Positions 2,023 to 45,312 of a stretch of DNA of 45,985 bases are shown here, piece by piece; position 1 is the stretch's first letter, and every line of letters starts with the position of its first letter. The position numbers and the translations under genes were made by a program. The notes under the pieces were generated by a model, which did not search any database, was not told the origin of the DNA, and was given only the letters and a program-made list of their open reading frames with translations. The DNA comes from a virus: UHGV virus genome UHGV-0017783. One strand, written 5' to 3'.

Positions 2023-2054
2023 TGACGTAGATTGAGTGGTGGTGCATAGTATCT
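2023..2054 (+). promoter_or_regulatory. sigma70-like promoter of recurring phage type (TTGACGTAGATTG ... 17 nt ... -10)
   Basis: TTGACG at 2023-2028 followed by tagattg; -10-like CATAGT/TAGTAT 17-20 nt downstream; same 13-mer recurs at >=8 promoter positions. Confidence 0.5.
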
Positions 2055-2076
2055 ACATCAAATGATGAGTGAGGTG

Positions 2077-2237: not shown

Positions 2238-2381
2238 ATGGTAATAGTTAAATTCAAAGAAAACGGACACTGCGGAGTGTTCAACCTTGAGCAAATCAAA
2301 ATTCGTCCGTGCGGTAAAGTAGTTGCACCATTTGGTTTGGTGCAGATGCGTGAATGCGAGATTATTGAATATATCAAGTGA
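2238..2381 (+). CDS. hypothetical protein (47 aa)
   Basis: tightly spaced after previous gene (3-nt gap), SD-like AATTATGG context. Confidence 0.3.
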   Translation: MVIVKFKENGHCGVFNLEQIKIRPCGKVVAPFGLVQMRECEIIEYIK

Positions 2382-2389
2382 GGTTGGTG

Positions 2390-2686
2390 ATGGAAGAGTT
2401 TAAAGGCACACAAGGAAAATGGGAAGTTGTTGCTGGTGAAGATAACGCGCCAGATGTTATCTCGGATATTGGTGTTGAGGTTGCATTCACGCCAACATAT
2501 AACGGCGATAAAACCGAACAGCGGCATAACGCAAAATTAATCGCAGCATCACCGGAACTACTCGCAGCACTCCAGCAGCTACTGGAAATCTACGACGACA
2601 ATTCCGGCAAAGTCTGGACAACATCAAGCAAGCGTCGCGCTCTGGATAATGCGCGTGCGGCGGTTAATAAGGCATTGGGAGAATAA
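2390..2686 (+). CDS. hypothetical protein, paralog of 35871..36179
   Basis: MEEFKGTQGKWEV..NAKLIAASPELLAALQQL..ARAAVNKALGE aligns with MKDEFKGTKGQWTN..NSNIITSAPELLEALRQL..ANKAIKKALGKK of the second copy. Confidence 0.5.
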   Translation: MEEFKGTQGKWEVVAGEDNAPDVISDIGVEVAFTPTYNGDKTEQRHNAKLIAASPELLAALQQLLEIYDDNSGKVWTTSSKRRALDNARAAVNKALGE

Positions 2687-3618: not shown

Positions 3619-4546
3619 CCGATTGCCACGCCTCACGCTGCTTATCAAGCCTTTCCTGTGATGACTCAAGAATGACTGGCTTGCCATCCATTAATAACGC
3701 TGGAGTTTGCGCACAGTGACAATTATATTTATTGCCATTCTCGCTGTAAAACGTATCAATCTCTTCCGGTGTATAGAACTTGCCATGCCGTGATGCATGC
3801 CAAGCCCTAGTTGATTTCATCAGCGCCGATTGCCACAGCATCACCGTCTCAACACCTAGCTCCTCTCGCGCCTCAATGACCTCTCGCCTGTTAGCCTGAC
3901 GCAGCGTTCCGGTTATTTCAGTCTGTGCCAGCTGCTTAGCGTAGCTATGTGACACGTCAACGCGCTTGACAATATCAGACTCAATATCACGAGGGTTAGC
4001 GCCACGGGCAATGCCTTCCATAATGACAGATGCCAGTTGCTGACGGGAATAATCACTCAATCCGCGCCAGTCTGAATATCCTGCTGTGTATGCCAGTTGA
4101 AGTCTGTTCAGATAAGGCTCACTGTAGAGTATCGTAGCAATCGGCCTTTGTTCTGCATAAACCGGAGACAGACTTGACAGTTCTGAGTTAGCCTTCTGCG
4201 TTCCAGCCTGATACGCATCACCAATGAACACGTTAGCCCACATCCTGCCGTGACCGAAATCATCACCTTCAAGCAGAATCTCGTCAATCAGCGCCTGCAA
4301 TTCATCCATGAATGTGGCGGCTCGCGCACTACTGAAATCGTAGAAATACAGGCCGTTTGATTCTGCGTTAGCCTGACTGCTCGGAATAGTGTGGAACAAC
4401 TCAAGCGCACGAGTCCTGAGTTGCTTGTATTTGCGAGTTATCACCTTATCCATCTTCGACAGGCGAGTCGCAGCACCCAGCGGGTCGGTCAGGCTCTGTG
4501 ATATGCGCGGTTGGGGAAGTCTTGCGTTAAACCGGAGTATCTTCAT
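3596..4546 (-). CDS. head morphogenesis protein (phage Mu F / SPP1 gp7-like minor head protein)
   Basis: 316-aa ORF immediately downstream of portal in late operon; composition and position typical of MuF-like family. Confidence 0.55.
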   Translation of the reverse strand: MKILRFNARLPQPRISQSLTDPLGAATRLSKMDKVITRKYKQLRTRALELFHTIPSSQANAESNGLYFYDFSSARAATFMDELQALIDEILLEGDDFGHGRMWANVFIGDAYQAGTQKANSELSSLSPVYAEQRPIATILYSEPYLNRLQLAYTAGYSDWRGLSDYSRQQLASVIMEGIARGANPRDIESDIVKRVDVSHSYAKQLAQTEITGTLRQANRREVIEAREELGVETVMLWQSALMKSTRAWHASRHGKFYTPEEIDTFYSENGNKYNCHCAQTPALLMDGKPVILESSQERLDKQREAWQSANKKPSK

Positions 4547-5448
4547 TTTCGTTTTCCACCATATTTTAAAACCAAATCAGCAGCCTCGTGGATTGATACA
4601 TTGAAGAACTCAGTTGCACCATCAAATCCTGTCAACCCTGCATTTTTATGTTTTATTTCTTTATGTATCATTGATTCAGCCCTTCTCGCGTCAGCCCATG
4701 ATGGGAATGAGTACTCAGCAACCACGACAACGGTTTTCCCTGCTGATTTTGATATGCTCTTCATTCTTCTTTTGGTGTTGTTGCTTATCCCGATCTTGCA
4801 CACCCCATCCATTTCAGCCACATATACACTTGCAGGTTTATACCCATAAGCTGTGCATTTATTACAACCAGATCCACTCAAGTGTGAGTTCGGCGTCTGG
4901 TAGAAATCACCATGCAGATGACATGTAATGCACACTTTTCTTGAGCTTTTCACGTAATTAACTTTCTCGTATGAGTATCTTCTCCCATGAATCGCTTTTG
5001 CTTTTGTTATGAAAGAGGCTTTATTGTCGCTAAATTTGTCTGATAGGTGCTCAAGTTTGCATGATGGGCAACCATTTCCTGATAGATGGTTGGCTGGCTG
5101 CTGTGAAAAGTCACCATGTTTTTGACATGTTATCAACACCTTCCTGTGATTTCCGGTATATACGCATTTGTCATATGAATATTTATCACCATGAATCATT
5201 TTAGCTTTGGAGATAAATTCATCATTTGATGCCATCAATTTTCTTGCTCTAACATCTCTAGCGCAAAGCTCGCAGCCGTAACCAACGAGATGGCATTCCG
5301 CTTTTTGAGTAAAGTCACCATGTTTTCTGCACGTTATTATTACTTGATTTTTCGTCCCGGAAAACACAGATTTATCATAAATGTACTTATCGCCATGCTT
5401 TTGCTTGGCGCGAGAAATGAAGTCTTCCGTGGTGAGTCTTTTTGCCAT
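4543..5448 (-). CDS. putative homing endonuclease: three tandem Zn-ribbon repeat modules + C-terminal T5orf172/GIY-YIG-like domain
   Basis: Three ~55-aa repeats (F I S/T K A K x x H G D K Y x Y D K ... K V x I T C x K H G D F x Q ... H L x G x G C P x C) followed by KIGISNNTKRRMKS...GFDGATEFF domain; inserted between portal and MuF genes; real start probably MAKRLTTEDF. Confidence 0.5.
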   Translation of the reverse strand: MAKRLTTEDFISRAKQKHGDKYIYDKSVFSGTKNQVIITCRKHGDFTQKAECHLVGYGCELCARDVRARKLMASNDEFISKAKMIHGDKYSYDKCVYTGNHRKVLITCQKHGDFSQQPANHLSGNGCPSCKLEHLSDKFSDNKASFITKAKAIHGRRYSYEKVNYVKSSRKVCITCHLHGDFYQTPNSHLSGSGCNKCTAYGYKPASVYVAEMDGVCKIGISNNTKRRMKSISKSAGKTVVVVAEYSFPSWADARRAESMIHKEIKHKNAGLTGFDGATEFFNVSIHEAADLVLKYGGKRK

Positions 5449-5542
5449 GATTAACCCCGTAGTAGGTTCGTAGATTGAGGATGCAGCAGGGTGTCTACGT
5501 TCACCTTTTCGTCTGGCCGGACTAGCTGCATTTGTTATTATA

Positions 5543-6967
<1,425 letters not shown>

Positions 6968-7846: not shown

Positions 7847-7876
7847 AGTGATATCTCCGACAAACCTGATGTAGAT

Positions 7877-7943: not shown

Positions 7944-7972
7944 TTGACGTAGATATATTGGTGATGTAGATT
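7944..7972 (+). promoter_or_regulatory. sigma70-like promoter TTGACG-17-TAGATT
   Basis: TTGACG 7944-7949, TAGATT 7967-7972, 17-nt spacer; gtgatgtagattg element. Confidence 0.55.
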
Positions 7973-8190: not shown

Positions 8191-9606
8191 GCGACGGATT
8201 AGCATCCCGCTACCGCGTTGGACGATGTGGTCCCCAAGGCCATAGCGTAAACTATCAATCGCGTGATTGTACTTGTCAACTATATCAGGGAGTATGTTCC
8301 CTGTTAATTTATCCACCTTGTAGCTGTACATTGTCATCTCTTCAATGACGTGCTTGCATCTTGAGTGTACGTAAATCCTGTCGCACCCACGTAACCACGT
8401 AATTCCGTCCTCAATGCTACCCGGCCATTTTGCGCACGGATGAATATCGAATCCAGATCGGCGTATATGGCTTATTGTCTCAGGTCGAGCGCAATCACCA
8501 TACCATCTGTACTTTTCTGAATTTGGGAAGGCCGAGCGCATTGCCTCCGGTGTGTCAGTTATCTCAAGGCCAACCTTTGCAAAGTCGCGGTAGATATATA
8601 AGTTCCTGCGTCCATCACCCAAGTCTTCTACATATGATTCTGTTGCTGCGGTTGCATCCTGAGAAAAACCAAAGTCAATGCCGTAGTAAGGCCCTCCCCA
8701 CTCAGGAGATGGTTCAAAGTCCAGTGTTTGCCATTTCCCACCGAGAACAGCTTCTTCAGACCGCTTGTTGAATAATCCCTCATACACCCAAAGGTAGCGA
8801 TCATAATCCACCGCCCTCATCTGGTTCATGTGCTGTTTAAGTTCTTCCGTGAACCACGGGTTGTGGACGTAGTTAACATTAACAACAACGATGTCATCAT
8901 CCTGATATATGCCATCAACCATCTTGTCGATGTAAGGCTCAACAAAGTTAGTCCACGTTGGGTCCGTCTCTTTGTTCGGGTTAAAAACAATAATAATTTC
9001 AGAACCAGCGGCGCGGACTGTTGGGATCAGCGTATCCCATGAAACCTGACTAATATTCTCGGATTCTTCACAGAATACATCTGTAAGCCCAGCCATACCT
9101 TTGATGGCGGTTATGTTTCGCCAGAGGCCACGAAAAACAAACTTTGATCTCGTTGTGTGGTGTGTTATCTCGCCATCCACGCAACGATATTCCTGAGTGT
9201 GCCCCTTCCTGTTTATCTCATCGACCAGCTCGGCATAGCTTGATTCTTTGATTGAGTTCTGTATCTCGCGGAAGCATCCGACGCGGCTGTTGCGGAATCT
9301 TGCTTTTTCTATCAGATAAGATATACACGTTCGGCTCTTAGAGCTGCCACGCCCCCCATAAAACACTTTAAAACGCCGTGGGTAAAGGATAAGCTCCATC
9401 CGCTCAGGAATTAATATTGTTGGTTCTTCATCAGTTTCAGATACCCCCGTGGCTGTCATCTTAAGGCGCTTTACGACATTGGGAGAACCATCCTGAAGTA
9501 ACTTATCTACAAGCCCAAAAACTGCTGATTCTGGCTTTGCAGTTGAGTTGCCAACTACCTGTTCAAGTTTTTCGATTGCCACACTTGAGAGTCTTTTTCT
9601 AGCCAT
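8182..9606 (-). CDS. terL: terminase large subunit
   Basis: Walker A YGGRGSSKS near N-terminal ATPase domain, C-terminal nuclease-like acidic residues; 474 aa. Confidence 0.8.
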   Translation of the reverse strand: MARKRLSSVAIEKLEQVVGNSTAKPESAVFGLVDKLLQDGSPNVVKRLKMTATGVSETDEEPTILIPERMELILYPRRFKVFYGGRGSSKSRTCISYLIEKARFRNSRVGCFREIQNSIKESSYAELVDEINRKGHTQEYRCVDGEITHHTTRSKFVFRGLWRNITAIKGMAGLTDVFCEESENISQVSWDTLIPTVRAAGSEIIIVFNPNKETDPTWTNFVEPYIDKMVDGIYQDDDIVVVNVNYVHNPWFTEELKQHMNQMRAVDYDRYLWVYEGLFNKRSEEAVLGGKWQTLDFEPSPEWGGPYYGIDFGFSQDATAATESYVEDLGDGRRNLYIYRDFAKVGLEITDTPEAMRSAFPNSEKYRWYGDCARPETISHIRRSGFDIHPCAKWPGSIEDGITWLRGCDRIYVHSRCKHVIEEMTMYSYKVDKLTGNILPDIVDKYNHAIDSLRYGLGDHIVQRGSGMLIRRRR

Positions 9607-10129
9607 GATTACAAAACTCCCCGTGATGTTTCTCTCTTTCTTTCATTATCTTTTTGACTGCATCTTCAATGTTGGCAAACCTACCAAGGTTAACCTCCCT
9701 ACCATTTATATTTAATCTCGCCATCCACTTGCATCTTGATTTATCCCAATACACACCCTTAACTCCTGATGTGTTGTTTGCCTGTAGCTTTTTGTTGTAA
9801 CCATTTTGCTGATGGTCAGCCTCTCGCAGATTAACAAAACGATTATCAAGCGTATTGTTGTTTATGTGGTCTATTTCTTTTTCAGGCCAACTACCAGTCA
9901 TGTAAAGCCAAGCCAGCCTGTGCGATCTATACCACTTTCTTCCAAAATGAATATAGTGATACGGTCGCTTGCTACCAACTGGGCCGCATAATTTTATTGT
10001 TCCTGCTGGCTTCCCGGGTTTGGCCCTTCCCTGCTTGTGTGGGTTTTTCCATGTAAAAATTCCGGTGTCAGGATTGTAATCAAGGATGTGTTTTAATTCT
10101 GCTTGCGTAAGCATATATAGATTCCTCAT
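9599..10129 (-). CDS. HNH endonuclease with AP2-like DNA-binding domain (homing endonuclease)
   Basis: EIDHINNNTLDNRFVNLR..H.QN (HNH_3) followed by TSGVKGVYW...W.A.....G....LGRF (AP2); inserted between terS and terL; paralog of 44800..45312. Confidence 0.7.
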   Translation of the reverse strand: MRNLYMLTQAELKHILDYNPDTGIFTWKNPHKQGRAKPGKPAGTIKLCGPVGSKRPYHYIHFGRKWYRSHRLAWLYMTGSWPEKEIDHINNNTLDNRFVNLREADHQQNGYNKKLQANNTSGVKGVYWDKSRCKWMARLNINGREVNLGRFANIEDAVKKIMKEREKHHGEFCNHG

Positions 10130-13192: not shown

Positions 13193-13221
13193 AATCTACA
13201 TCAGTTGTAATTCTACGTCAA
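13193..13221 (-). promoter_or_regulatory. early-right promoter TTGACG-17-TAGATT (minus strand)
   Basis: reverse complement of cgtcaa (13216-13221) and aatcta (13193-13198), 17-nt spacer; same 13-mer family. Confidence 0.55.
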
Positions 13222-35180: not shown

Positions 35181-35300
35181 TTTTTTACCGCGCGATGGTG
35201 AGCGGGTAGAGCCGTTTGGCTTCACTGCACCAGTTTTGCCGCCGGTTTTGGTATTGCCAGTAGCGCGTGAACGAGAAGGTGAATTGGTGGAACCCATGCT
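35181..35300 (-). CDS. Lys/Arg/Ser/Thr-rich peptide (39 aa)
   Basis: ATG with AGGAGA SD; MGSTNSPSRSRATGNTKTGGKTGAVKPNGSTRSPSRGKK. Confidence 0.3.
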
Positions 35301-35344
35301 TAAATCTCCTGTTGTTTGATTAGCATGATTTTAGCATATTCCTG

Positions 35345-35373
35345 TTGACGTAGATTGATGAGGTGTTTATAGT
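35345..35373 (+). promoter_or_regulatory. promoter TTGACG-17-TATAGT
   Basis: TTGACGTAGATTG 35345-35357; TATAGT 35368-35373; second gtgacgtagaa copy at 35376. Confidence 0.55.
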
Positions 35374-35414
35374 TAGTGACGTAGAAACAACAATAAATGT
35401 TAGAGGTGATGAAA

Positions 35415-35675
35415 ATGTTTGATATTGATAACCCAAGCGATGACAAAGCCAAGTTGATTGATGCGGTCGCTTGCAGCTTTGCTTCTTGCCAGACTGAAGG
35501 TGAATATCAGGCTGTGAAAATGTGCATTGTTGAGTTTTTCTCAGCAATCAACATTCCTGATGATGAGGCGGTTGATATTCTGCTGAGTGCGGCTGGAAAT
35601 TGCGCTGAGGCGGACGAATGTATTGATGAGCTGGTTGAAGAGTTTGGCGGCATTTTTCAGGGTGATGAGGAGTAA
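35415..35675 (+). CDS. highly acidic small protein (86 aa), candidate DNA mimic
   Basis: Asp/Glu-rich throughout (..DELVEEFGGIFQGDEE); GAGGTG SD 6 nt upstream of ATG; first gene of cassette. Confidence 0.45.
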   Translation: MFDIDNPSDDKAKLIDAVACSFASCQTEGEYQAVKMCIVEFFSAINIPDDEAVDILLSAAGNCAEADECIDELVEEFGGIFQGDEE

Positions 35676-35677
35676 TC

Positions 35678-35869
35678 ATGGCAAATATGTCCTACTGTAT
35701 GTTCCGAAATACTATGGCTGATTTCCGAAATTGTGTTGATGCACTTAGCAATGCTGGTTCTATTGATGACTTTAGCGTGCCAGAGCGCTGTGCCGCAGAG
35801 CAAATGTATTATCTGGCTAATGCATATATTGCAAACTATGAACTCTTATTAGAAGAAAGTGGTGAATGA
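35678..35869 (+). CDS. hypothetical protein (63 aa)
   Basis: 3-nt intergenic spacing. Confidence 0.35.
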   Translation: MANMSYCMFRNTMADFRNCVDALSNAGSIDDFSVPERCAAEQMYYLANAYIANYELLLEESGE

Positions 35870-35870
35870 T

Positions 35871-36179
35871 ATGAAAGATGAATTCAAAGGCACGAAAGGT
35901 CAGTGGACCAATCATTCTTTATTTACTGGTGAAGCGCGTACATCAATTTGGTCTGGTGATATTTATGTAGCAGAAGTAATGAGTGTTAGGGAGTCTGAAT
36001 CGGTGAAGAAGGCTAACTCAAATATTATAACATCAGCACCAGAACTTCTTGAAGCACTTCGCCAGCTTCGCGATTATGTTGAGGATGTTTGCGCAGTATC
36101 GTCGGATGATTGCCATGAGGAACATCCATTAAATCTGGCGAACAAAGCAATCAAGAAAGCATTAGGAAAGAAACAATGA
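35871..36179 (+). CDS. hypothetical protein, paralog of 2390..2686
   Basis: shared EFKGTxGxW / SAPELLEALRQL / NKAIKKALGKK motifs. Confidence 0.5.
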   Translation: MKDEFKGTKGQWTNHSLFTGEARTSIWSGDIYVAEVMSVRESESVKKANSNIITSAPELLEALRQLRDYVEDVCAVSSDDCHEEHPLNLANKAIKKALGKKQ

Positions 36180-36985
36180 AAACACTAAGCAAAATCTATT
36201 CAGACAAAGAAACGCGCAACGGCATCGCTGTAAACAAAACCTATCTCGTGCCAGTGGAGCAAATCTATCTGGAGCCTGGATACAACATCCGCGAAGCAGA
36301 TGAGCAGCATGTGGAATATTTCGCGCAGTGCTGGGAGTCAGGTCAGCCATTACCAGCATTAACAGTTATTCCAGATGAGAAGGGAATCCGCATTCTTGAT
36401 GGTCAGCATCGCTATCTCGGCGCATTGCGTGCCATTGAGCGCGGCGCGCCAATAGTTCGCATTGAGTGTAAGGATTTTACTGGCGACGAGGCGGATAAAA
36501 TCGCCTTCATGGTGTCATCCAGTCAGGGTAAGCAGCTTGACCCGTTTGAACGTGCAAAGGCTTACACTCGACTGAAAGGTTTTGGCTGGACGAATGAAGA
36601 AATCGCCAAAAAGGTAGGCCGCTCAGTATCTGACGTGCAAATGCATCTGTCACTGGGTGATGTGCCTGCTGAAGTAAAAGCGCGAATCAGCGCCGGGCAA
36701 ATCAGCTATGCAAACGCCGTAGCAGTAACGCGTGAGCATGGAGATGATGCGGTAAAAGTTATCGACGAGGCAGTGGAAGAAGCGAAGGCGCAAGGCAAGG
36801 ATAAGGTCACAGCGAAGGTGCTGAAATCCAAAAGGATTAAGCCAGTGGACCGCCTGATTGAGTTGTTGCAGCAAGCAGACCACGTGATTCTCCCTGCTGG
36901 TCATGTGGTGGCTGAGGATGAGGAATTTATCCAGATTCCTGTTGCTGATATTCACGAGGTTATGGCAATTCTGGAGAAGATGTGA
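36176..36985 (+). CDS. ParB N-terminal domain (ParB/Srx-fold nuclease/CTPase-like) protein
   Basis: ILDGQHRYLGALRA motif (ParB box-like DGQHR), 269 aa, C-terminal helical region. Confidence 0.6.
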   Translation: MKTLSKIYSDKETRNGIAVNKTYLVPVEQIYLEPGYNIREADEQHVEYFAQCWESGQPLPALTVIPDEKGIRILDGQHRYLGALRAIERGAPIVRIECKDFTGDEADKIAFMVSSSQGKQLDPFERAKAYTRLKGFGWTNEEIAKKVGRSVSDVQMHLSLGDVPAEVKARISAGQISYANAVAVTREHGDDAVKVIDEAVEEAKAQGKDKVTAKVLKSKRIKPVDRLIELLQQADHVILPAGHVVAEDEEFIQIPVADIHEVMAILEKM

Positions 36986-37176
36986 TGAGTAAGTATGAAG
37001 AGCTGGACTTGAAGATATTGCACATGCTTTCAGTTAAACCAACTCCTGTTTTTGATATATGGTTTAAGTTTCGTGACGATGTTAGAGACATTACGGTTAT
37101 TGACAGGAGGATGCAGGCACTGAAAAAGAAAGGTTTTGTTTATAATGTTCGCGGATGTGGTTGGGTTAAGTTATGA
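36982..37176 (+). CDS. hypothetical small protein (64 aa), possibly winged-helix
   Basis: translationally coupled ORF. Confidence 0.35.
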   Translation: MMSKYEELDLKILHMLSVKPTPVFDIWFKFRDDVRDITVIDRRMQALKKKGFVYNVRGCGWVKL

Positions 37177-37346
37177 CACCAGAACAATTCATCGAAAAAC
37201 AACTTCGCACCAAGCTACCAGACATTGACCAGATGGCAATTGATGCGGCAATTCAGCATTACAAGCGCAATCAGAGCGTAAAGAAGGGTGGCATTTTTGA
37301 GGAATGCCTGAAGGTTGCAAAACAACACATGATTAAGGTGAAGTGA
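37173..37346 (+). CDS. hypothetical protein (57 aa)
   Basis: ATGA overlap with upstream stop. Confidence 0.3.
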   Translation: MTPEQFIEKQLRTKLPDIDQMAIDAAIQHYKRNQSVKKGGIFEECLKVAKQHMIKVK

Positions 37347-37882
37347 TGAAACTAAAAATCAGCAAACTATTACTTGAGTCAGCATTAATATTTCAGGCGC
37401 GCAACGATGTGAGATATTACCTGAATGGTATCTGCTTTATGCCTGATGGTCGCATCGCCTCAACTGATGGTCATCGCGCATTTATTGGCGGCAGCCATGA
37501 CAATAAGCTGACAGAAAATGTGATTATCAAGATTGGAAAATCCCCAACAAAACGCTATGAGTACGCCATCATTGATACCAAGTCGAAAATTGCAACGTAT
37601 CATGATGAAGCCGGCGAGATGGTTGGTTCTGGTATCTGCGAAGAGATTGATGGAAGATTCCCTGATATTGAACGTGTTATACCGAAGCAAACCTTGCCAA
37701 CAGAGGAAATTGGCTTCAATGCTGGCTATCTGGTTGATATTGAGAAAGCGGCAAAGCTGTTTAATCCTAAATTCTGTGGTGTCAAATTTGAACTAAATGG
37801 AAACACAAACGCCGCAGTTTGCTGCCTTAGTGCGCCATCTGGCGAGACCGCAAAGGTTGTTGTTATGCCTATGCGTCTGTAG
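37346..37882 (+). CDS. truncated DNA polymerase III beta sliding-clamp (DnaN) homologue: domain II + C-terminal half of domain III
   Basis: [30 protein letters not shown] ~ DnaN [45 protein letters not shown] ~ [26 protein letters not shown] ~ EIGFNVSYVLDV; C-terminus [10 protein letters not shown] ~ AAYVVMPMRL. Confidence 0.75.
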   Translation: [178 protein letters not shown]

Positions 37883-37883
37883 T

Positions 37884-37919
37884 AATAAAAAACCCGCATT
37901 ATGCGGGTTTAGTTTATTC
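37884..37919. terminator. bidirectional rho-independent terminator
   Basis: aaaaaacccgcattatgcgggttt + agtttatt. Confidence 0.65.
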
Positions 37920-38111
37920 TGCTTTCTTTTTCTTTGTCGTCTTTTGTTGTGGTGTTGCTACTTCGAAAGACTTTTCCAGTTCTGGCATGATTCTCAGTTT
38001 TGACATCCAGTGGTCTGGCGGTGTTTCAATCACCTCGCCAAGCTGTAATTCACGAATCACGCCTTTCTCTTTAACAAAGATTCCGCGTGCGATGACTTCG
38101 TATTTAGCCAT
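37914..38111 (-). CDS. small structural-operon protein (65 aa)
   Basis: GAGGA SD; Lys-rich C-terminus; located after capsid gene. Confidence 0.4.
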   Translation of the reverse strand: MAKYEVIARGIFVKEKGVIRELQLGEVIETPPDHWMSKLRIMPELEKSFEVATPQQKTTKKKKAE

Positions 38112-38189: not shown

Positions 38190-39005
38190 GTGACTTTTAT
38201 GAAAACAAGAAAAGAAGCCGCGCAAGAAGCAAGGGTTGCTGGATTGAAGCAATTTGTATGTGAATGGGTTCCATGCTCTGTATGTGGTGGAACTGTGTTT
38301 TTCACGGCGTCATGCGGGTGCAAGCATTGTGTATACGAAAGAACAAGGAAACAGAGAGCAACAGAGGAGCGCAAACGCAAGGAAAGTGAGTACAGAAAAA
38401 AGGAGTGGCAGAAAAACAAGGATAACAGCGAGTATAAAAAGAAAAGAAAACAATCACAAAAGGAGTACAACAAAAGGAAGATGCAAAGGCTTAACGAGAA
38501 TCCAGAGAAAAAGGAGGAGTTTTTACAAAAGAAAAGGGAGGCTTATCGCAGATGGTATCACTCTGAGAAAGGCAACAAAAAGGCTCTGGATAATGTCAAG
38601 CAATGGCAAAAGAAACACCCTCACCACGTGCTCCTAAGGAAGATGCTTGAGCGGATTGATGTGAGGGTATCTGACATTGCGCTTGATAGAACAGTAGACG
38701 ATGCTCTCGGGTACTCAAAGGATGATTTCATTAAGCATATAAAATCAACTATGCTTCCATGGATGAGTTTTGATGACCGTAGTAATTGGCATATTGACCA
38801 TATTTTATCTGTCAACTGGTTTGTTAAGAATAACCTCGTATACCCAGAACTGGTTAATGCTCTTCACAATTTAAAAGCGGAGCCGGCGGAGTACAACTAC
38901 AAGAAGAACAGGAAGTGGCTACGGACAGATATGACGGAATGGGAGTTTTGTTACATGTTACAGTACATGGTTTACGGTGAAATTAGATACAAAGAAGGGG
39001 GATAA
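38190..39005 (+). CDS. Zn-ribbon + Lys-rich + HNH-like (..NWHIDHILSV..) protein, putative homing endonuclease
   Basis: N-terminal CxxC..CxC, central poly-Lys/Glu low-complexity, C-terminal H-N-H-like motif; plus-strand insert before capsid gene with own promoter-like TTGTAG..TAATAT. Confidence 0.4.
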   Translation: MTFMKTRKEAAQEARVAGLKQFVCEWVPCSVCGGTVFFTASCGCKHCVYERTRKQRATEERKRKESEYRKKEWQKNKDNSEYKKKRKQSQKEYNKRKMQRLNENPEKKEEFLQKKREAYRRWYHSEKGNKKALDNVKQWQKKHPHHVLLRKMLERIDVRVSDIALDRTVDDALGYSKDDFIKHIKSTMLPWMSFDDRSNWHIDHILSVNWFVKNNLVYPELVNALHNLKAEPAEYNYKKNRKWLRTDMTEWEFCYMLQYMVYGEIRYKEGG

Positions 39006-39022
39006 ACCCCCTTTTTATTATT
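38992..39022. terminator. hairpin terminator overlapping stops of convergent HNH-like and capsid genes
   Basis: aggggg-ataaa-ccccct + ttttatta. Confidence 0.5.
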
Positions 39023-43205: not shown

Positions 43206-43380
43206 TTAGTACATCCTCAGCAAGTTTGCGGAACATGATTTGCACCCTTGCAACCTTGCGCCACTCAGCTTCGGTGAGAATCACATCCTCATGCTGCGGC
43301 ATTCCTGACATTTTGCATGGTGGCAGCAGCTCATACTCTTGCTTCTTGCGTTTTGCTTTTCCCATGACGACCTCTTGCAT
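43189..43380 (-). CDS. hypothetical early-left protein (63 aa)
   Basis: ORF in early-left operon. Confidence 0.3.
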   Translation of the reverse strand: MQEVVMGKAKRKKQEYELLPPCKMSGMPQHEDVILTEAEWRKVARVQIMFRKLAEDVLNEMGY

Positions 43381-43825
43381 TGCGAAGAAGTGAATTAAAT
43401 AGATTGCTCACATTTACTTCCTGCTCCTTCCATGAGTAACGCCGCAGCTTCTTGTGGTGGTCATAGCTTCGCGTTACATCGCCGTTATGAAGCATGATGC
43501 GGATGCGGCTTTTCACGATTCGGTAATCAATTCCAGGGGAGATGCTAATTTCTTTCACCTCTGCGCCAGCGTTATCAAGCAAGTGGCACTTAATAGCATC
43601 ATCAATACCTGCAGCATCATCAGAGATAAAATACTTATATTGCCACTTGCCACCACGAATCACTGACTTTTCGCGGCGAATAAAGCCAAGCGCAAGCATC
43701 TCATGAAGTCGATGCGTTGTGGTGCTTGAGTGCTTTCCTCCGCAATGCTTTTCAATATATGCACGCGTTGCGCCGGGATGATTGACAATCACGCGCATGA
43801 TTTGCGATTTATAGTCCATAATCAC
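43331..43825 (-). CDS. putative winged-helix DNA-binding protein (164 aa)
   Basis: N-terminal wHTH-like segment (RAYIEKHCGG...HRLHEMLALGFIRREK), basic C-terminus. Confidence 0.4.
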   Translation of the reverse strand: MIMDYKSQIMRVIVNHPGATRAYIEKHCGGKHSSTTTHRLHEMLALGFIRREKSVIRGGKWQYKYFISDDAAGIDDAIKCHLLDNAGAEVKEISISPGIDYRIVKSRIRIMLHNGDVTRSYDHHKKLRRYSWKEQEVNVSNLFNSLLRNARGRHGKSKTQEARV

Positions 43826-44063
43826 ACTCCTCTGCTGCCTGATTAAAGTTGTCAGCGGTGTAGAGGTGTCCTCCTCTTGTGTTCCATTGCGTAGCTGCTG
43901 CCAATTTGGTTACGTGGACGTCACTTGAGCATCCGCACTCACACATGGCGAAATACACCCCATTGTCGTTATATAATTTAACTTCGTCACTACCACAGAA
44001 TGGGCACTCAAGAAGCCCTTCGTTGTTCATCATCGGCATATGCGGTGCGCTCATTTTATCCAC
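43809..44063 (-). CDS. Lar-family restriction alleviation protein
   Basis: ECPFCGS..VKL....GVYFAMCECGCSS......AAATQWNTR matches Lar (Rac prophage) Zn-ribbon signature. Confidence 0.55.
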   Translation of the reverse strand: MDKMSAPHMPMMNNEGLLECPFCGSDEVKLYNDNGVYFAMCECGCSSDVHVTKLAAATQWNTRGGHLYTADNFNQAAEECDYGL

Positions 44064-44526: not shown

Positions 44527-44572
44527 GGTACAATCTACGTCAATAAGTATTGACTAAATGATGTAGATTGGT
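44527..44572. promoter_or_regulatory. divergent promoter/operator region with inverted GTAGATTG elements
   Basis: caatctacgtcaa (RC of TTGACGTAGATTG) at 44531-44543 and tgatgtagattg at 44559-44570; genes diverge from here. Confidence 0.5.
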
Positions 44573-44603: not shown

Positions 44604-44819
44604 ATGCCAAGACCACGACGCGAGCCGATGGACATTATCACCAGCATTGTGGAGAAGCGGCAGCCGCTGACACTCCGTGATGTTCGCTACTTTGCCCGTT
44701 GCTATGTGGCGCTGGCTGATATGCCGAAGGATGAGATGTATGATTTGATTCGGGCCAACTTCAGTGTTGACGAGAATAACAAAGTCACAATGAAAAGGGG
44801 TGATGATGAACTGGAATGA
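44604..44819 (+). CDS. hypothetical protein (72 aa)
   Basis: ATG with GAGAAGGAG SD. Confidence 0.45.
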   Translation: MPRPRREPMDIITSIVEKRQPLTLRDVRYFARCYVALADMPKDEMYDLIRANFSVDENNKVTMKRGDDELE

Positions 44820-45312
44820 TGTGTTCGAATACCGTGATGGTCAGTTGTATTGGAAGATAAGGCCTGCGAATAGGGTTAAGGTTGGTGATATTGCTGGGTC
44901 AAAAAACGATAAAGGCTATCTTTTATTTGATTTCAAAGGCAAAAAGCACCCTGCGCACAGGGTAATTTGGGAAATGCATCACGGTACCATTCCATCTGGA
45001 ATGGAAATTGACCACATAAACCACATTCGTGATGACAACAGAATTGAAAATCTTCGCCTTGCTAGTCATGCTGAAAATACCCGTAACATGTCAAAGCATA
45101 GATACAATACTAGTGGAGTGACTGGTGTGTGCTGGCATAAGCACCAAAGGAAGTGGGTAGCACAGATAATGTTTGACGGAAAGTATACATGCCTGGGTTA
45201 TTTTGTCGATTTTGATGAGGCTGTAAGATGCAGGAAATCAGCAGAATTAAATTTAGGATTTCACAGCAATCACGGGGATTCAAAAAGAAATGAAATTGAA
45301 CGACATCAATGA
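44800..45312 (+). CDS. HNH endonuclease with AP2 domain (homing endonuclease), paralog of 9599..10129
   Basis: EIDHINHIRDDNRIENLRLASHAEN (HNH_3) + TSGVTGVCWHK..KWVAQI..GKYTCLGYF (AP2). Confidence 0.7.
   Translation: MMMNWNDVFEYRDGQLYWKIRPANRVKVGDIAGSKNDKGYLLFDFKGKKHPAHRVIWEMHHGTIPSGMEIDHINHIRDDNRIENLRLASHAENTRNMSKHRYNTSGVTGVCWHKHQRKWVAQIMFDGKYTCLGYFVDFDEAVRCRKSAELNLGFHSNHGDSKRNEIERHQ

What the first reader, a model, noticed from the sequence alone, without database searches (positions are those of the whole stretch)
35345..37919. Self-contained plus-strand cassette inside the structural operon: acidic protein + ParB-N protein + truncated sliding clamp
About 2.5 kb between the capsid and head-tail genes (both minus strand) is transcribed the opposite way. 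It is driven by a sigma70-like promoter (TTGACGTAGATTG..TATAGT) and closed by a strong bidirectional terminator. It encodes, in order, a strongly acidic 86-aa protein (DNA-mimic-like composition), a 63-aa protein, a paralog of a gene in a second cassette, a 269-aa ParB-N/Srx-fold protein (DGQHR motif), two tiny proteins and a 178-aa DnaN fragment. The gene content (acidic mimic-like protein, ParB-like domain, clamp fragment) suggests a module acting on host DNA replication, partition or defence rather than on virion assembly. This combination is not a textbook phage module.
Basis: partly seen in the sequence, partly recalled or inferred. Interest (0 to 1): 0.8.

Follow-up and report, generated by a model that had tools for sequence, protein, structure and literature searches.

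The report
Early phage operon with ring-less mini-clamp
This is a real, conserved operon of a Salmonella/E. coli tailed phage; its fixed core is a ParB-like DNA-binding protein and a shortened copy of the bacterial DNA sliding clamp that cannot form a ring but keeps the clamp's partner-docking pocket, probably to tap into the host replication machinery.

Summary
Bases 35345-37912 carry seven tightly packed plus-strand genes between minus-strand virion genes, with a sigma70-type promoter and a strong hairpin terminator. The window is a Skatevirus-like siphophage, and more than 200 GenBank phages carry this cassette. In 37 relatives the fixed parts are the promoter (two TGAYGTAGA boxes 30-31 bp apart), the ParB-like gene, the 57-aa ORF6 and the 178-aa clamp-like gene. 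The acidic protein, ORF2, ORF3, ORF5, methyltransferases and HNH genes come and go.

Distant members lie between cII and the O/P or O/DnaB replication genes of lambdoid prophages, and this phage has no DNA polymerase. My best reading is a ring-less docking module for host clamp-binding proteins. That mechanism is inferred, not shown. DNA mimicry by the acidic protein is unsupported, and the DGQHR motif is not conserved among the three ParB homologues compared.

The parts
35345..35373 (+). Sigma70-type promoter: -35 TTGACG, 17-nt spacer, -10 TATAGT
   Evidence: Consensus scan, 10 of 12 matches. Both hexamers are conserved in relatives while the spacer varies.
35346..35385 (+). Direct pair of TGACGTAGA boxes (35346-35354 and 35377-35385). 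The first overlaps the -35 box and the second lies just downstream of the -10 box. This is a shared promoter/operator signature.
   Evidence: The 9-mer TGA[CT]GTAGA occurs 12 times in the window against 0.9 expected, mostly as pairs at promoters of other cassettes. A pair 30-31 bp apart lies upstream of the cassette in 36 of 37 sequences (35 of 36 related loci plus the window itself); one locus shows a single box.
35415..35675 (+). ORF1: 86-aa strongly acidic protein (pI 4.05), function unknown. Variable member of the cassette.
   Evidence: Matches phrog_14587, labelled 'anti-restriction'. No Pfam, NCBIfam or PDB relative. Only 19 clusters of homologues. Present in 4-5 of 34 relatives. dN/dS 0.02.
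35678..35869 (+). ORF2: 63-aa acidic protein, function unknown. Variable member.
   Evidence: phrog_8760. Present in 9 of 37 relatives. dN/dS 0.13.
35871..36179 (+). ORF3: 102-aa protein of unknown function, paralogue of window 2378-2686. Variable member.
   Evidence: phrog_1273 for both copies. BLASTP 31% identity over 100 aa, E 2e-5. Absent in Bas77 and ZK22. Present in 15 of 37 relatives.
36176..36985 (+). ORF4: 269-aa ParB/KorB-like DNA-binding protein with a degenerate N-terminal arginine patch (GQHRYLG), a ParB-type HTH and a C-terminal region. Core member.
   Evidence: Pfam HTH_ParB E 2.4e-11 and KorB E 9e-6. phrog_1033 E 3e-91. PDB Spo0J, ParB, Noc and KorB matches. Present in 36 of 37 relatives. 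dN/dS 0.07. Homologues next to the clamp-like gene in phages Eta and TC7.
36985..37176 (+). ORF5: 63-aa basic protein, function unknown. It fills the variable slot that holds a DNA methyltransferase in Bas77.
   Evidence: phrog_7185. Present in 3 of 37 relatives. Bas77 has a methyltransferase here.
37173..37346 (+). ORF6: 57-aa basic protein, always immediately upstream of the clamp-like gene and overlapping its start. Core member.
   Evidence: phrog_4439. Present in 37 of 37 relatives, directly upstream of the clamp-like gene. dN/dS 0.16.
37346..37882 (+). ORF7: 178-aa ring-less beta-clamp derivative ('mini-clamp'). It equals DnaN domain II plus the C-terminal half of domain III and keeps the clamp-binding-motif pocket. 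Core member.
37890..37910 (.). Bidirectional intrinsic terminator hairpin (AAACCCGCAT-TAT-GCGGGTTT)
   Evidence: Terminator scan finds it on both strands. Folding energy -15.6 and -14.8 kcal/mol, z -4.3 and -5.4. An equivalent hairpin follows the clamp-like gene in many relatives; in others, extra genes are inserted first.

Best explanation
The region is one of about six host-RNA-polymerase-driven, presumably early, transcription units of a Skatevirus-like lytic siphophage. All of them share a TTGACGTAGA-type promoter/operator signature.

Its fixed backbone is promoter, ParB/KorB-like DNA-binding protein, 57-aa ORF6, mini-clamp and terminator. There are three variable slots: next to the promoter, between ParB and ORF6, and after the clamp. 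In this phage the first two hold the acidic ORF1, ORF2, ORF3 and ORF5.

Shown:
- ORF7 is a compact 1.5-domain derivative of the proteobacterial beta sliding clamp: domain II plus the C-terminal half of domain III.
- It has lost domain I, the N-terminal half of domain III and the second inner helix of domain II. That removes both faces of the head-to-tail dimer interface.
- It keeps almost every residue of the hydrophobic cleft that binds clamp-binding motifs (Q-phi-x-L-F type).

Inferred:
- ORF7 is a soluble protein that does not encircle DNA.
- It docks host proteins carrying clamp-binding motifs. Candidates are the clamp-loader delta subunit, Pol III alpha and epsilon, Hda, Pol II/IV/V and MutS/L.
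- By doing so it diverts or recruits the host replisome hub for a phage that has no DNA polymerase of its own.

The ParB-like protein most likely acts as a DNA-bound organiser or regulator of phage DNA rather than as a partition protein. The acidic ORF1 has no assignable function.
For: Identity and fold:
- Sequence matches to E. coli-type DnaN residues 136-289 and 313-366, including the C-terminal VVMPMRL.
- AlphaFold with an 86-sequence alignment gives pLDDT 97.1 and pTM 0.91.
- The C-terminal unit scores 34.9 bits against the domain III C-half and 9.2 against the N-half.
- The model shows no helix between strands 59-63 and 73-77, where DnaN has its second domain II helix.

A real family:
- 1993 cluster representatives at E<=1e-3. 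Almost all of the 150 best are 165-215 aa and match full length.
- BFVD holds many viral proteins of about 180-210 aa with this fold, TM 0.8-0.89.
- dN/dS is 0.10.

Pocket:
- The 18 pocket residues are those listed in PMC11139829.
- 16 are identical in ORF7: R152, L155, T172, G174, H175, R176, P242, R246, V247, N320, Y323, V360, M362, P363, M364, R365.
- Across 86 diverse family members, mean conservation is 0.75 for pocket positions and 0.38 for the rest (Mann-Whitney p = 1e-6).
- 11 of the 20 most conserved positions are pocket residues.
- The dimer-interface residues I78, F106, I272, L273 and E298-E304 all fall in the deleted parts.

Context:
- Among 42 IMG/VR loci with distant homologues, a cI-type S24 repressor lies nearby in 33, cII just upstream in 20, replication protein O just downstream in 25 and a DnaB helicase further downstream in 18; some loci have lambda-type P instead of DnaB.
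- The same order occurs in Yersinia and Serratia prophages.
- In phages Eta and LIET2 the gene lies among SSB, helicase and primase genes.
- No DNA polymerase is found in the window or in Bas77.

Cassette backbone and promoter conservation.
Against: - No binding, oligomeric-state or expression data exist. The mechanism is inference from conservation and gene neighbourhood.
- The pocket residues are also the most conserved residues of DnaN itself, so part of their conservation could reflect fold constraints.
- Two pocket positions differ in ORF7: L177 is Ala, and the V344 equivalent is not conserved and its alignment is uncertain.
- A free decoy would also compete with the real clamp that the phage's own replication needs. 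A pure sponge model therefore needs selectivity or tethering, and neither has been shown.
- The gene is dispensable for plaque formation. The viable CRISPR-reduced mutant seszw_250L lacks it.
- In Kagunavirus, Cornellvirus, Dhillonvirus and Bcep43 the gene is a lone opposite-strand gene inside the head module, not in a replication module.
- Early timing is inferred from promoter type only.
Confidence: 0.5

Rival explanations
1. Anti-defence or counter-takeover decoy. The mini-clamp, alone or with the acidic ORF1 and the methyltransferases found in sister cassettes, neutralises a host or competitor factor that acts through the beta-clamp pocket, or otherwise protects phage DNA. In this reading it does not serve replication.
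For: - The cassette looks like a moron: it has its own promoter and terminator and lies on the opposite strand inside virion genes.
- DNA methyltransferases lie next to or near the mini-clamp in Bas77, IME_EC2, R20L, TC7, LIET2 and Bcep43.
- ORF1 carries a PHROG 'anti-restriction' label.
- The gene is dispensable in the laboratory.
Against: - In lambdoid prophages the gene lies inside the cII-O-P/DnaB replication operon.
- I know of no defence system that works through clamp-binding motifs.
- Skatevirus phages are reported as markedly sensitive to restriction-modification systems and to Old.
- ORF1 is absent from most cassettes.
Confidence: 0.15
2. True processivity clamp. Several copies of the 1.5-domain protein assemble into a closed ring (for example four copies giving 12 beta-alpha-beta-beta-beta units) that the host clamp loader places on phage DNA, to hold Pol III there.
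For: - It has a clamp fold and an intact polymerase-docking pocket.
- It lies in replication modules.
- The phage has no polymerase of its own.
Against: - Both halves of the canonical dimer interface are deleted.
- The middle unit lacks its inner helix.
- An odd number of half-domain units cannot tile a head-to-tail ring with cyclic symmetry. This is my own geometric inference.
- The loop of domain III that delta contacts is in the missing part.
- The monomer model is already compact and very confident.
Confidence: 0.1
3. Transcription coupling factor. By analogy with T4 gp45 and with Mu MuC using the beta clamp, the mini-clamp links phage late-gene transcription to another phage or host protein through its pocket.
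For: - Sliding clamps activate late transcription in T4 and Mu (PMC7892883 and PMC12867686, listed).
- In four lineages the gene is embedded in the late head-gene block.
- Here it is co-transcribed with a KorB-like protein.
Against: - No phage protein in the window carries a credible exposed clamp-binding motif. The single pattern match lies in the ParB recognition helix and is not conserved.
- In lambdoid phages the gene lies in the replication operon.
Confidence: 0.08
4. Decaying remnant of a captured host dnaN gene, or a RusA-like Holliday-junction resolvase as labelled in RefSeq and PHROGs.
For: - The length is about half of DnaN.
- phrog_3007 is named 'RusA-like Holliday junction resolvase', and that name is used in many RefSeq records.
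Against: - dN/dS is 0.10.
- There are hundreds of diverged full-length family members of constant architecture.
- The fold prediction is very confident.
- There is no RusA match in Pfam, NCBIfam or the PDB, and every structural hit is a clamp.
Confidence: 0.02

Closest known systems
Bacterial beta sliding clamp (DnaN, DNA polymerase III beta subunit)
   Different: Only 178 aa against 366. Domain I, the N-terminal half of domain III and the second helix of domain II are absent, so both faces of the ring-closing interface are missing. It is encoded by phages, often in addition to the host dnaN gene.
Monomeric beta-clamp variant I272A/L273A (laboratory construct)
   Same: It is a clamp that cannot close a ring but keeps the pocket. 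It is reported to bind the clamp-loader delta subunit about 50 times more tightly than the ring does (PMC11139829). That is a precedent for a ring-less clamp acting as a high-affinity trap.
   Different: The laboratory variant keeps all three domains. ORF7 is a natural 1.5-domain protein, and its binding has not been measured.
Herpesvirus processivity factors UL42, UL44, BMRF1 and PF-8
   Different: They have two full domains, bind DNA directly through a basic face and tether the virus's own polymerase. There is no sequence relationship. ORF7 has a near-neutral pI (7.6), and the phage has no polymerase.
ParB / Spo0J / Noc / KorB family
   Same: ORF4 has the ParB-type HTH and KorB domains, and its N-terminal domain aligns with Spo0J and ParB structures.
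   Different: The arginine patch GERRxRA is GQHRYLG, and ENLQR is SSSQG, so CTP binding or hydrolysis is doubtful. No ParA partner and no repeated parS-like palindrome were found.
Phage inhibitors of the host clamp (for example Twort Gp168; PDB 7evp appears among the hits)
   Same: They have the same target node, the interaction hub of the beta clamp.
   Different: Those proteins bind the host clamp. ORF7 is itself a copy of the clamp's docking site and would compete for the clamp's partners.
DNA-mimic anti-restriction proteins (Ocr, ArdA)
   Same: ORF1 is small and strongly acidic and carries a PHROG 'anti-restriction' label.
   Different: ORF1 has no detectable homology to any known family. 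It is absent from most sister cassettes. Phages of this genus are restriction-sensitive.

Membership tests
Beta sliding clamp (DnaN) | Significant sequence and fold similarity to DnaN | tested here: met
Beta sliding clamp (DnaN) | Three complete domains (six beta-alpha-beta-beta-beta units) per subunit | tested here: not met
   178 aa with three units. Domain I and the domain III N-half are absent, and the middle unit lacks its helix. NCBIfam dnaN scores 32.6 bits against a cut-off of 137.65. Pfam beta_2 and beta_3 score below their cut-offs.
Beta sliding clamp (DnaN) | Head-to-tail dimer interface (I78 and F106 with I272 and L273, plus E298-E304) closing a ring | tested here: not met
   All interface residues listed in PMC11139829 map to the deleted segments.
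Beta sliding clamp (DnaN) | Hydrophobic pocket for clamp-binding motifs (subsites I and II) | tested here: met
   At sequence level, 16 of 18 residues are identical, and pocket positions are the most conserved in the family, p = 1e-6. Actual peptide binding was not tested.
Beta sliding clamp (DnaN) | Encircles DNA and confers processivity | not testable with these tools
   Needs oligomer modelling or biochemistry.
ParB/Spo0J/KorB | ParB-type helix-turn-helix DNA-binding domain | tested here: met
   Pfam HTH_ParB 44.1 bits (cut-off 22.6) and KorB 26 bits (cut-off 22.3).
ParB/Spo0J/KorB | N-terminal CTP-binding motifs GERRxRA and ENLQR | tested here: not met
   ORF4 has GQHRYLG and SSSQG at the aligned positions. 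Pfam ParB N-domain gave no hit at E<=0.1. TIGR00180 scores 38.9 bits against a cut-off of 58.45. Homologues in Eta and TC7 keep GHRRxRA.
ParB/Spo0J/KorB | Cognate palindromic parS/OB sites and a ParA or KorA partner | tested here: inconclusive
   No repeated palindrome family was found in the window. No ParA is annotated in Bas77 or found among the window ORFs that were scanned. A single or degenerate site cannot be excluded.
DGQHR-domain proteins (DndB-like, TIGR03187) | Match to the DGQHR domain model | tested here: not met
   16.2 bits against a cut-off of 58.85. The motif is not conserved in homologues.
DNA-mimic anti-restriction proteins (Ocr/ArdA) | Homology or a structural mimic of B-DNA | tested here: not met
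   Homology was tested and not found: no Pfam, NCBIfam or PDB match. Only the acidic composition fits.
DNA-mimic anti-restriction proteins (Ocr/ArdA) | Protects the phage from restriction | not testable with these tools
   Indirect evidence only: the BASEL study reports Skatevirus isolates as markedly sensitive to restriction-modification systems.
RusA Holliday-junction resolvase (database label of phrog_3007) | RusA fold or sequence | tested here: not met
   No RusA hit in Pfam, NCBIfam or the PDB. The fold is a clamp.
Autonomous sigma70 transcription unit | Promoter hexamers with correct spacing, and an intrinsic terminator | tested here: met
   Conserved across relatives. No transcript data.

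The most novel reading that the evidence does not exclude
Phages have repeatedly kept a cut-down copy of the host's own replication hub. It consists of just the docking cleft of the beta clamp on a ring-less scaffold, and it works as a 'clamp-interactome sponge or adaptor'. It would capture the clamp-loader delta subunit, Hda or polymerases and so re-route host replication and repair proteins to phage DNA, or away from host DNA. That would be a previously undescribed class of host-takeover factor, present in lambdoid prophages as well as in many lytic siphophages and myophages.
Probability: 0.35. Interest if true: 0.8.

Novelty: new variant of a known kind. Interest (0 to 1): 0.6.

Why it matters
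The beta clamp is the central docking hub of bacterial replication and repair, and it is an antibiotic target. A natural, widespread, ring-less version that keeps only the docking cleft would matter in three ways.

1. It would show a new way for viruses without a polymerase to commandeer the host replisome.
2. It would give a minimal soluble scaffold for studying or screening clamp-binding-motif interactions.
3. It would correct a mis-annotation ("RusA-like Holliday junction resolvase" or "DNA polymerase III beta subunit") that has spread through hundreds of phage genomes.

Its position between cII and O in lambdoid prophages makes the question directly testable in classical genetic systems.

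The cassette as a whole is otherwise ordinary for this genus. It is one of several opposite-strand accessory units with a shared promoter, and its contents other than ParB, ORF6 and the mini-clamp are interchangeable.

Tried and rejected
- **Shallow alignment for structure prediction.** AlphaFold with 32 sequences of 72-94% identity gave a useless model (pLDDT 53). It worked only with 86 diverse representatives.
- **parS-like sites for the ParB-like protein.** I found no repeated perfect or near-perfect palindrome in the window. The only palindrome in the cassette is the terminator.
- **Clamp-binding motifs in phage proteins as possible ORF7 partners.** There was a single pattern match, QMHLSL, in the ParB recognition helix. 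About one match is expected by chance, and it is not conserved in Eta or TC7. Rejected.
- **Obligatory ParB-clamp pairing.** The pairing holds in Skatevirus-like phages, Eta, TC7 and a Pandoraea prophage. It is absent from most distant loci, so the mini-clamp works without ParB.
- **ORF1 as a known anti-restriction or DNA-mimic family.** No homology anywhere; the only PDB hit is CdiI at E 0.39, which is noise.
- **Dhillonvirus gp40 (neighbour of the clamp gene) as a ParB homologue.** It is not one.
- **Literature.** Searches found no paper on this family. The library is incomplete, so this is not proof of absence.
- **Supplementary gene-essentiality tables of the seszw genome-reduction paper.** They are not held. 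I used the deposited mutant genomes instead.
- **Alignment A2 for locus searches.** It was too diverse, so a 12-sequence alignment was used.


Full report
**1. What the window is**

Megablast of 35300-37950 finds 209 phage records. The best are Salmonella phages ZK22, 64795_sal3 and LPST10, Shigella phage DS8 and E. coli phage Bas77, at about 90-92% identity. These belong to Skatevirus or its unclassified relatives. In them the region is annotated as [quoted passage not shown] (the last also as "RusA-like Holliday junction resolvase"). It is flanked by lipoprotein, membrane-protein and head-tail genes on one side. On the other side lie a small gene, the major capsid, decoration and prohead genes, all on the opposite strand.

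**2. The observation**

The sequence shows seven plus-strand ORFs with abutting or overlapping stops and starts:
- ORF1, 35415-35675, 86 aa, pI 4.05
- ORF2, 35678-35869, 63 aa
- ORF3, 35871-36179, 102 aa
- ORF4, 36176-36985, 269 aa
- ORF5, 36985-37176, 63 aa
- ORF6, 37173-37346, 57 aa
- ORF7, 37346-37882, 178 aa

The promoter TTGACG-17-TATAGT (35345-35373) is the only 10-of-12 match in the region. The hairpin at 37890-37910 folds at -15.6 kcal/mol on the plus strand and -14.8 on the minus strand, with z -4.3 and -5.4. Pairwise dN/dS against orthologues in related loci is 0.02-0.37 for all seven ORFs, so all are real genes. ORF3 and window 2378-2686 are paralogues: 31% identity, shared N-terminal EFKGTxGxW motif, both in phrog_1273.

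**3. The promoter is part of a regulon**

The 9-mer TGA[CT]GTAGA includes the last five bases of the -35 hexamer. It occurs 12 times in the window against 0.9 expected, mostly as pairs in intergenic regions in front of other accessory cassettes:
- 2023/2052, in front of the "second cassette" that holds the ORF3 paralogue
- 7945/7962
- 13212/13195
- 35346/35377, the cassette studied here
- 44534/44559

Bas77 has 13 copies against 0.7 expected, in matching places. A direct pair 30-31 bp apart lies upstream of the cassette in 36 of 37 sequences (35 of 36 related IMG/VR loci plus the window itself; one locus shows a single box), whatever gene comes first. In four close relatives both boxes and the -10 are conserved while the spacer varies. 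The promoter is therefore functional with high probability. The cassette is one of about six co-regulated units read by host RNA polymerase. Early timing is inferred. The regulator is unknown. Candidates are ORF4 and a MarR-like protein at 43331-43825.

**4. Anatomy across relatives**

In the 37 loci, ParB is present in 36, ORF6 in 37 and the clamp-like gene in 37. The others are patchy: ORF1 in 4-5, ORF2 in 9, ORF3 in 15, ORF5 in 3, a methyltransferase in 5 and the HNH gene in 3. In one locus the promoter sits directly in front of ParB. Many loci carry extra genes between the clamp-like gene and the terminator. The unit is thus a fixed backbone of promoter, ParB, ORF6, mini-clamp and terminator, with three variable slots.

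**5. ORF7, the mini-clamp**

*Homology.* phmmer against PDB sequences gives E 2e-14 to enterobacterial DnaN. Residues 7-154 align to DnaN 136-289, and residues 119-178 align to DnaN 313-366, ending in the identical VVMPMRL.

*Family size.* A scan of 1.84 billion cluster representatives finds 1993 proteins at E<=1e-3. Almost all of the 150 best are 165-215 aa and match over the full length. The first full-length DnaN appears only at E 5e-13. A profile of 86 such proteins hits E. coli DnaN at E 2e-26.

*Which part of DnaN is kept.* The C-terminal unit scores 34.9 bits against the C-terminal half of domain III and 9.2 bits against the N-terminal half. The architecture is therefore domain II plus the second half of domain III. 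The model has no helix where the second domain II helix should be.

*Pocket and interface.* I took pocket and interface residues from the review PMC11139829. Of 18 pocket residues, 16 are identical in ORF7. Across the 86 family members, pocket positions have mean conservation 0.75 against 0.38 elsewhere (p = 1e-6), and 11 of the 20 most conserved positions are pocket residues. The dimer-interface residues (I78, F106, I272, L273, E298-E304) all lie in the missing parts.

*Conclusion (shown).* ORF7 is a conserved, ring-incompetent derivative of the beta clamp that preserves the docking cleft.

**6. Gene neighbourhoods of the family**

- Skatevirus-like phages: as described above.
- Serratia phage Eta: SSB, ParB-like, mini-clamp, helicase.
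- Pseudomonas phage TC7: ParB-like, then the mini-clamp, then a cytosine methyltransferase. The Eta and TC7 ParB-like proteins are full-length homologues of ORF4 at 29-31% identity.
- IME_EC2, R20L, LIET2 and Bas77: next to or near DNA methyltransferases.
- Kagunavirus, Cornellvirus, Dhillonvirus and Burkholderia phage Bcep43: a lone opposite-strand gene (two genes in Dhillonvirus) inside the head-gene block.
- 42 more distant IMG/VR loci (39-65% identity to ORF7): the commonest neighbours are a cI-type S24 repressor (33 loci), cII just upstream (20), replication protein O just downstream (25) and DnaB (18), with lambda-type P in some. All were confirmed with Pfam. Yersinia similis and Serratia fonticola prophages show the same order.

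Neither the window nor Bas77 encodes a DNA polymerase. The window has a Prim-Pol/PriCT-2/DUF3987 primase-helicase, an AAA_24 ATPase, Gp157, DUF669 and an SNF2 helicase. All other large ORFs are structural, lysis or HNH genes.

**7. Mechanism (inferred)**

A monomeric protein that displays the clamp's cleft should bind the short motifs that tether delta, Pol III alpha and epsilon, Hda, Pol II/IV/V and MutS/L to the clamp. The monomeric beta variant I272A/L273A is reported to bind delta about 50 times more tightly than the ring does. That is a precedent for high-affinity capture by a ring-less clamp.

Two observations point the same way. Distant members sit in the cII-O-P/DnaB operon of phages that depend wholly on host Pol III. 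This phage lacks a polymerase. The most economical reading is therefore a replication-takeover accessory factor. It could be an adaptor that concentrates host replisome components on phage DNA, or a selective sponge for regulators or competitors of phage replication.

The factor is not essential. The CRISPR-reduced mutant seszw_250L (38,024 bp) lacks the gene but keeps ParB and the acidic gene. Most other reduced mutants keep all three.

**8. ORF4**

ORF4 has ParB-type HTH and KorB domains above the Pfam cut-offs and aligns with the Spo0J, ParB, Noc and KorB structures. The CTP-binding signature is degenerate: GERRxRA is GQHRYLG and ENLQR is SSSQG. No ParA and no repeated parS-like palindrome were found. 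A classical partition role is unlikely for this lytic phage. A KorB-like or Noc-like DNA-organising or regulatory role is my inference.

**9. ORF1**

ORF1 is strongly acidic, probably helical and highly constrained. It has no relatives outside 19 clusters of close phages, no family or structure match, and is absent from most sister cassettes. The genus is restriction-sensitive. DNA mimicry remains a guess.

**10. Novelty and verdict**

The cassette is already in the databases and is annotated, partly wrongly. Within the searchable library I found no study of the mini-clamp family. The Bcep43 record already called its copy a "DNA Pol III b subunit fragment". What is new here is the definition of the family: a fixed 1.5-domain architecture that retains the docking cleft, loses the ring interfaces, and is associated with the replication modules of polymerase-less phages. 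I class it as a new variant of a known kind, with moderate to high interest. The rest of the cassette is ordinary accessory cargo.

Noticed in passing
window 2023-2060, 7945-7970, 13195-13220, 35346-35385, 44534-44567 (also singles at 7867 and 30710): TGA[CT]GTAGA boxes occur 12 times against 0.9 expected. They come mostly in pairs (direct, inverted or divergent) at the promoters of about six accessory or early cassettes. The same pattern is seen in Bas77 (13 against 0.7). This looks like a phage-wide promoter/operator code with an unknown regulator.
   Followed up: partly
window 38190-39005 (+), with a terminator-like hairpin at 38992-39016: An HNH/endonuclease-VII-like ORF of 271 aa lies between the 65-aa minus-strand gene and the major capsid gene. 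It is present in only 3 of 37 relatives, so it is probably a homing endonuclease. Three more HNH genes lie at 4546-5607 (-), 9602-10129 (-) and 44800-45312 (+).
   Followed up: partly
window 37346-37882, and phrog_3007 in general: PHROG 3007 is named 'RusA-like Holliday junction resolvase', and that name has spread into many RefSeq phage records. The family is a beta-clamp derivative with no RusA similarity.
   Followed up: yes
L005 (Dhillonvirus 'rolling'), L006 (Bcep43), L011 (Kagunavirus), L013 (Cornellvirus): In four otherwise different phage groups the mini-clamp gene sits on the opposite strand inside the head-gene block, after the head-morphogenesis gene. In Dhillonvirus it has one companion gene. 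Why a replication-type gene keeps this position is unexplained.
   Followed up: no
L050-L094 (IMG/VR), L096, L097: Distant mini-clamp homologues lie between cII and the replication genes O and P or DnaB of lambdoid prophages, including ones in Yersinia similis and Serratia fonticola.
   Followed up: partly
L001 5378-6175 (Bas77); L008, L007, L014, L012: DNA methyltransferase genes repeatedly lie next to or near the mini-clamp gene in unrelated phages. In this window that slot holds the 63-aa ORF5 instead.
   Followed up: no
window 43331-44063 (-): Another cassette behind a TGAYGTAGA promoter encodes a MarR-like regulator (phrog_1687) and a Lar-like restriction-alleviation protein (phrog_599). 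The MarR-like protein is a candidate regulator of the shared boxes.
   Followed up: no
L004 (MZ375343.1, mutant seszw_250L) and other seszw mutant genomes: Deposited CRISPR-reduced genomes serve as a natural essentiality test. One viable 38.0-kb mutant lacks the mini-clamp and lipoprotein genes. ParB and the acidic gene are kept in every mutant I inspected.
   Followed up: partly
L095 (Pantoea eucrina scaffold NZ_JAOBTT010000003.1, 20 kb): A bacterial genome assembly contains a 92%-identical mini-clamp with ParB upstream. It probably comes from a Skatevirus-like phage contig, either contamination or a carrier state, in a Pantoea assembly.
   Followed up: no
window 36638-36655 (ORF4 residues 155-160, QMHLSL): This is the only match to the clamp-binding-motif pattern among 16 phage proteins. 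It lies in the ParB recognition helix and is not conserved in homologues, so it is probably chance.
   Followed up: yes
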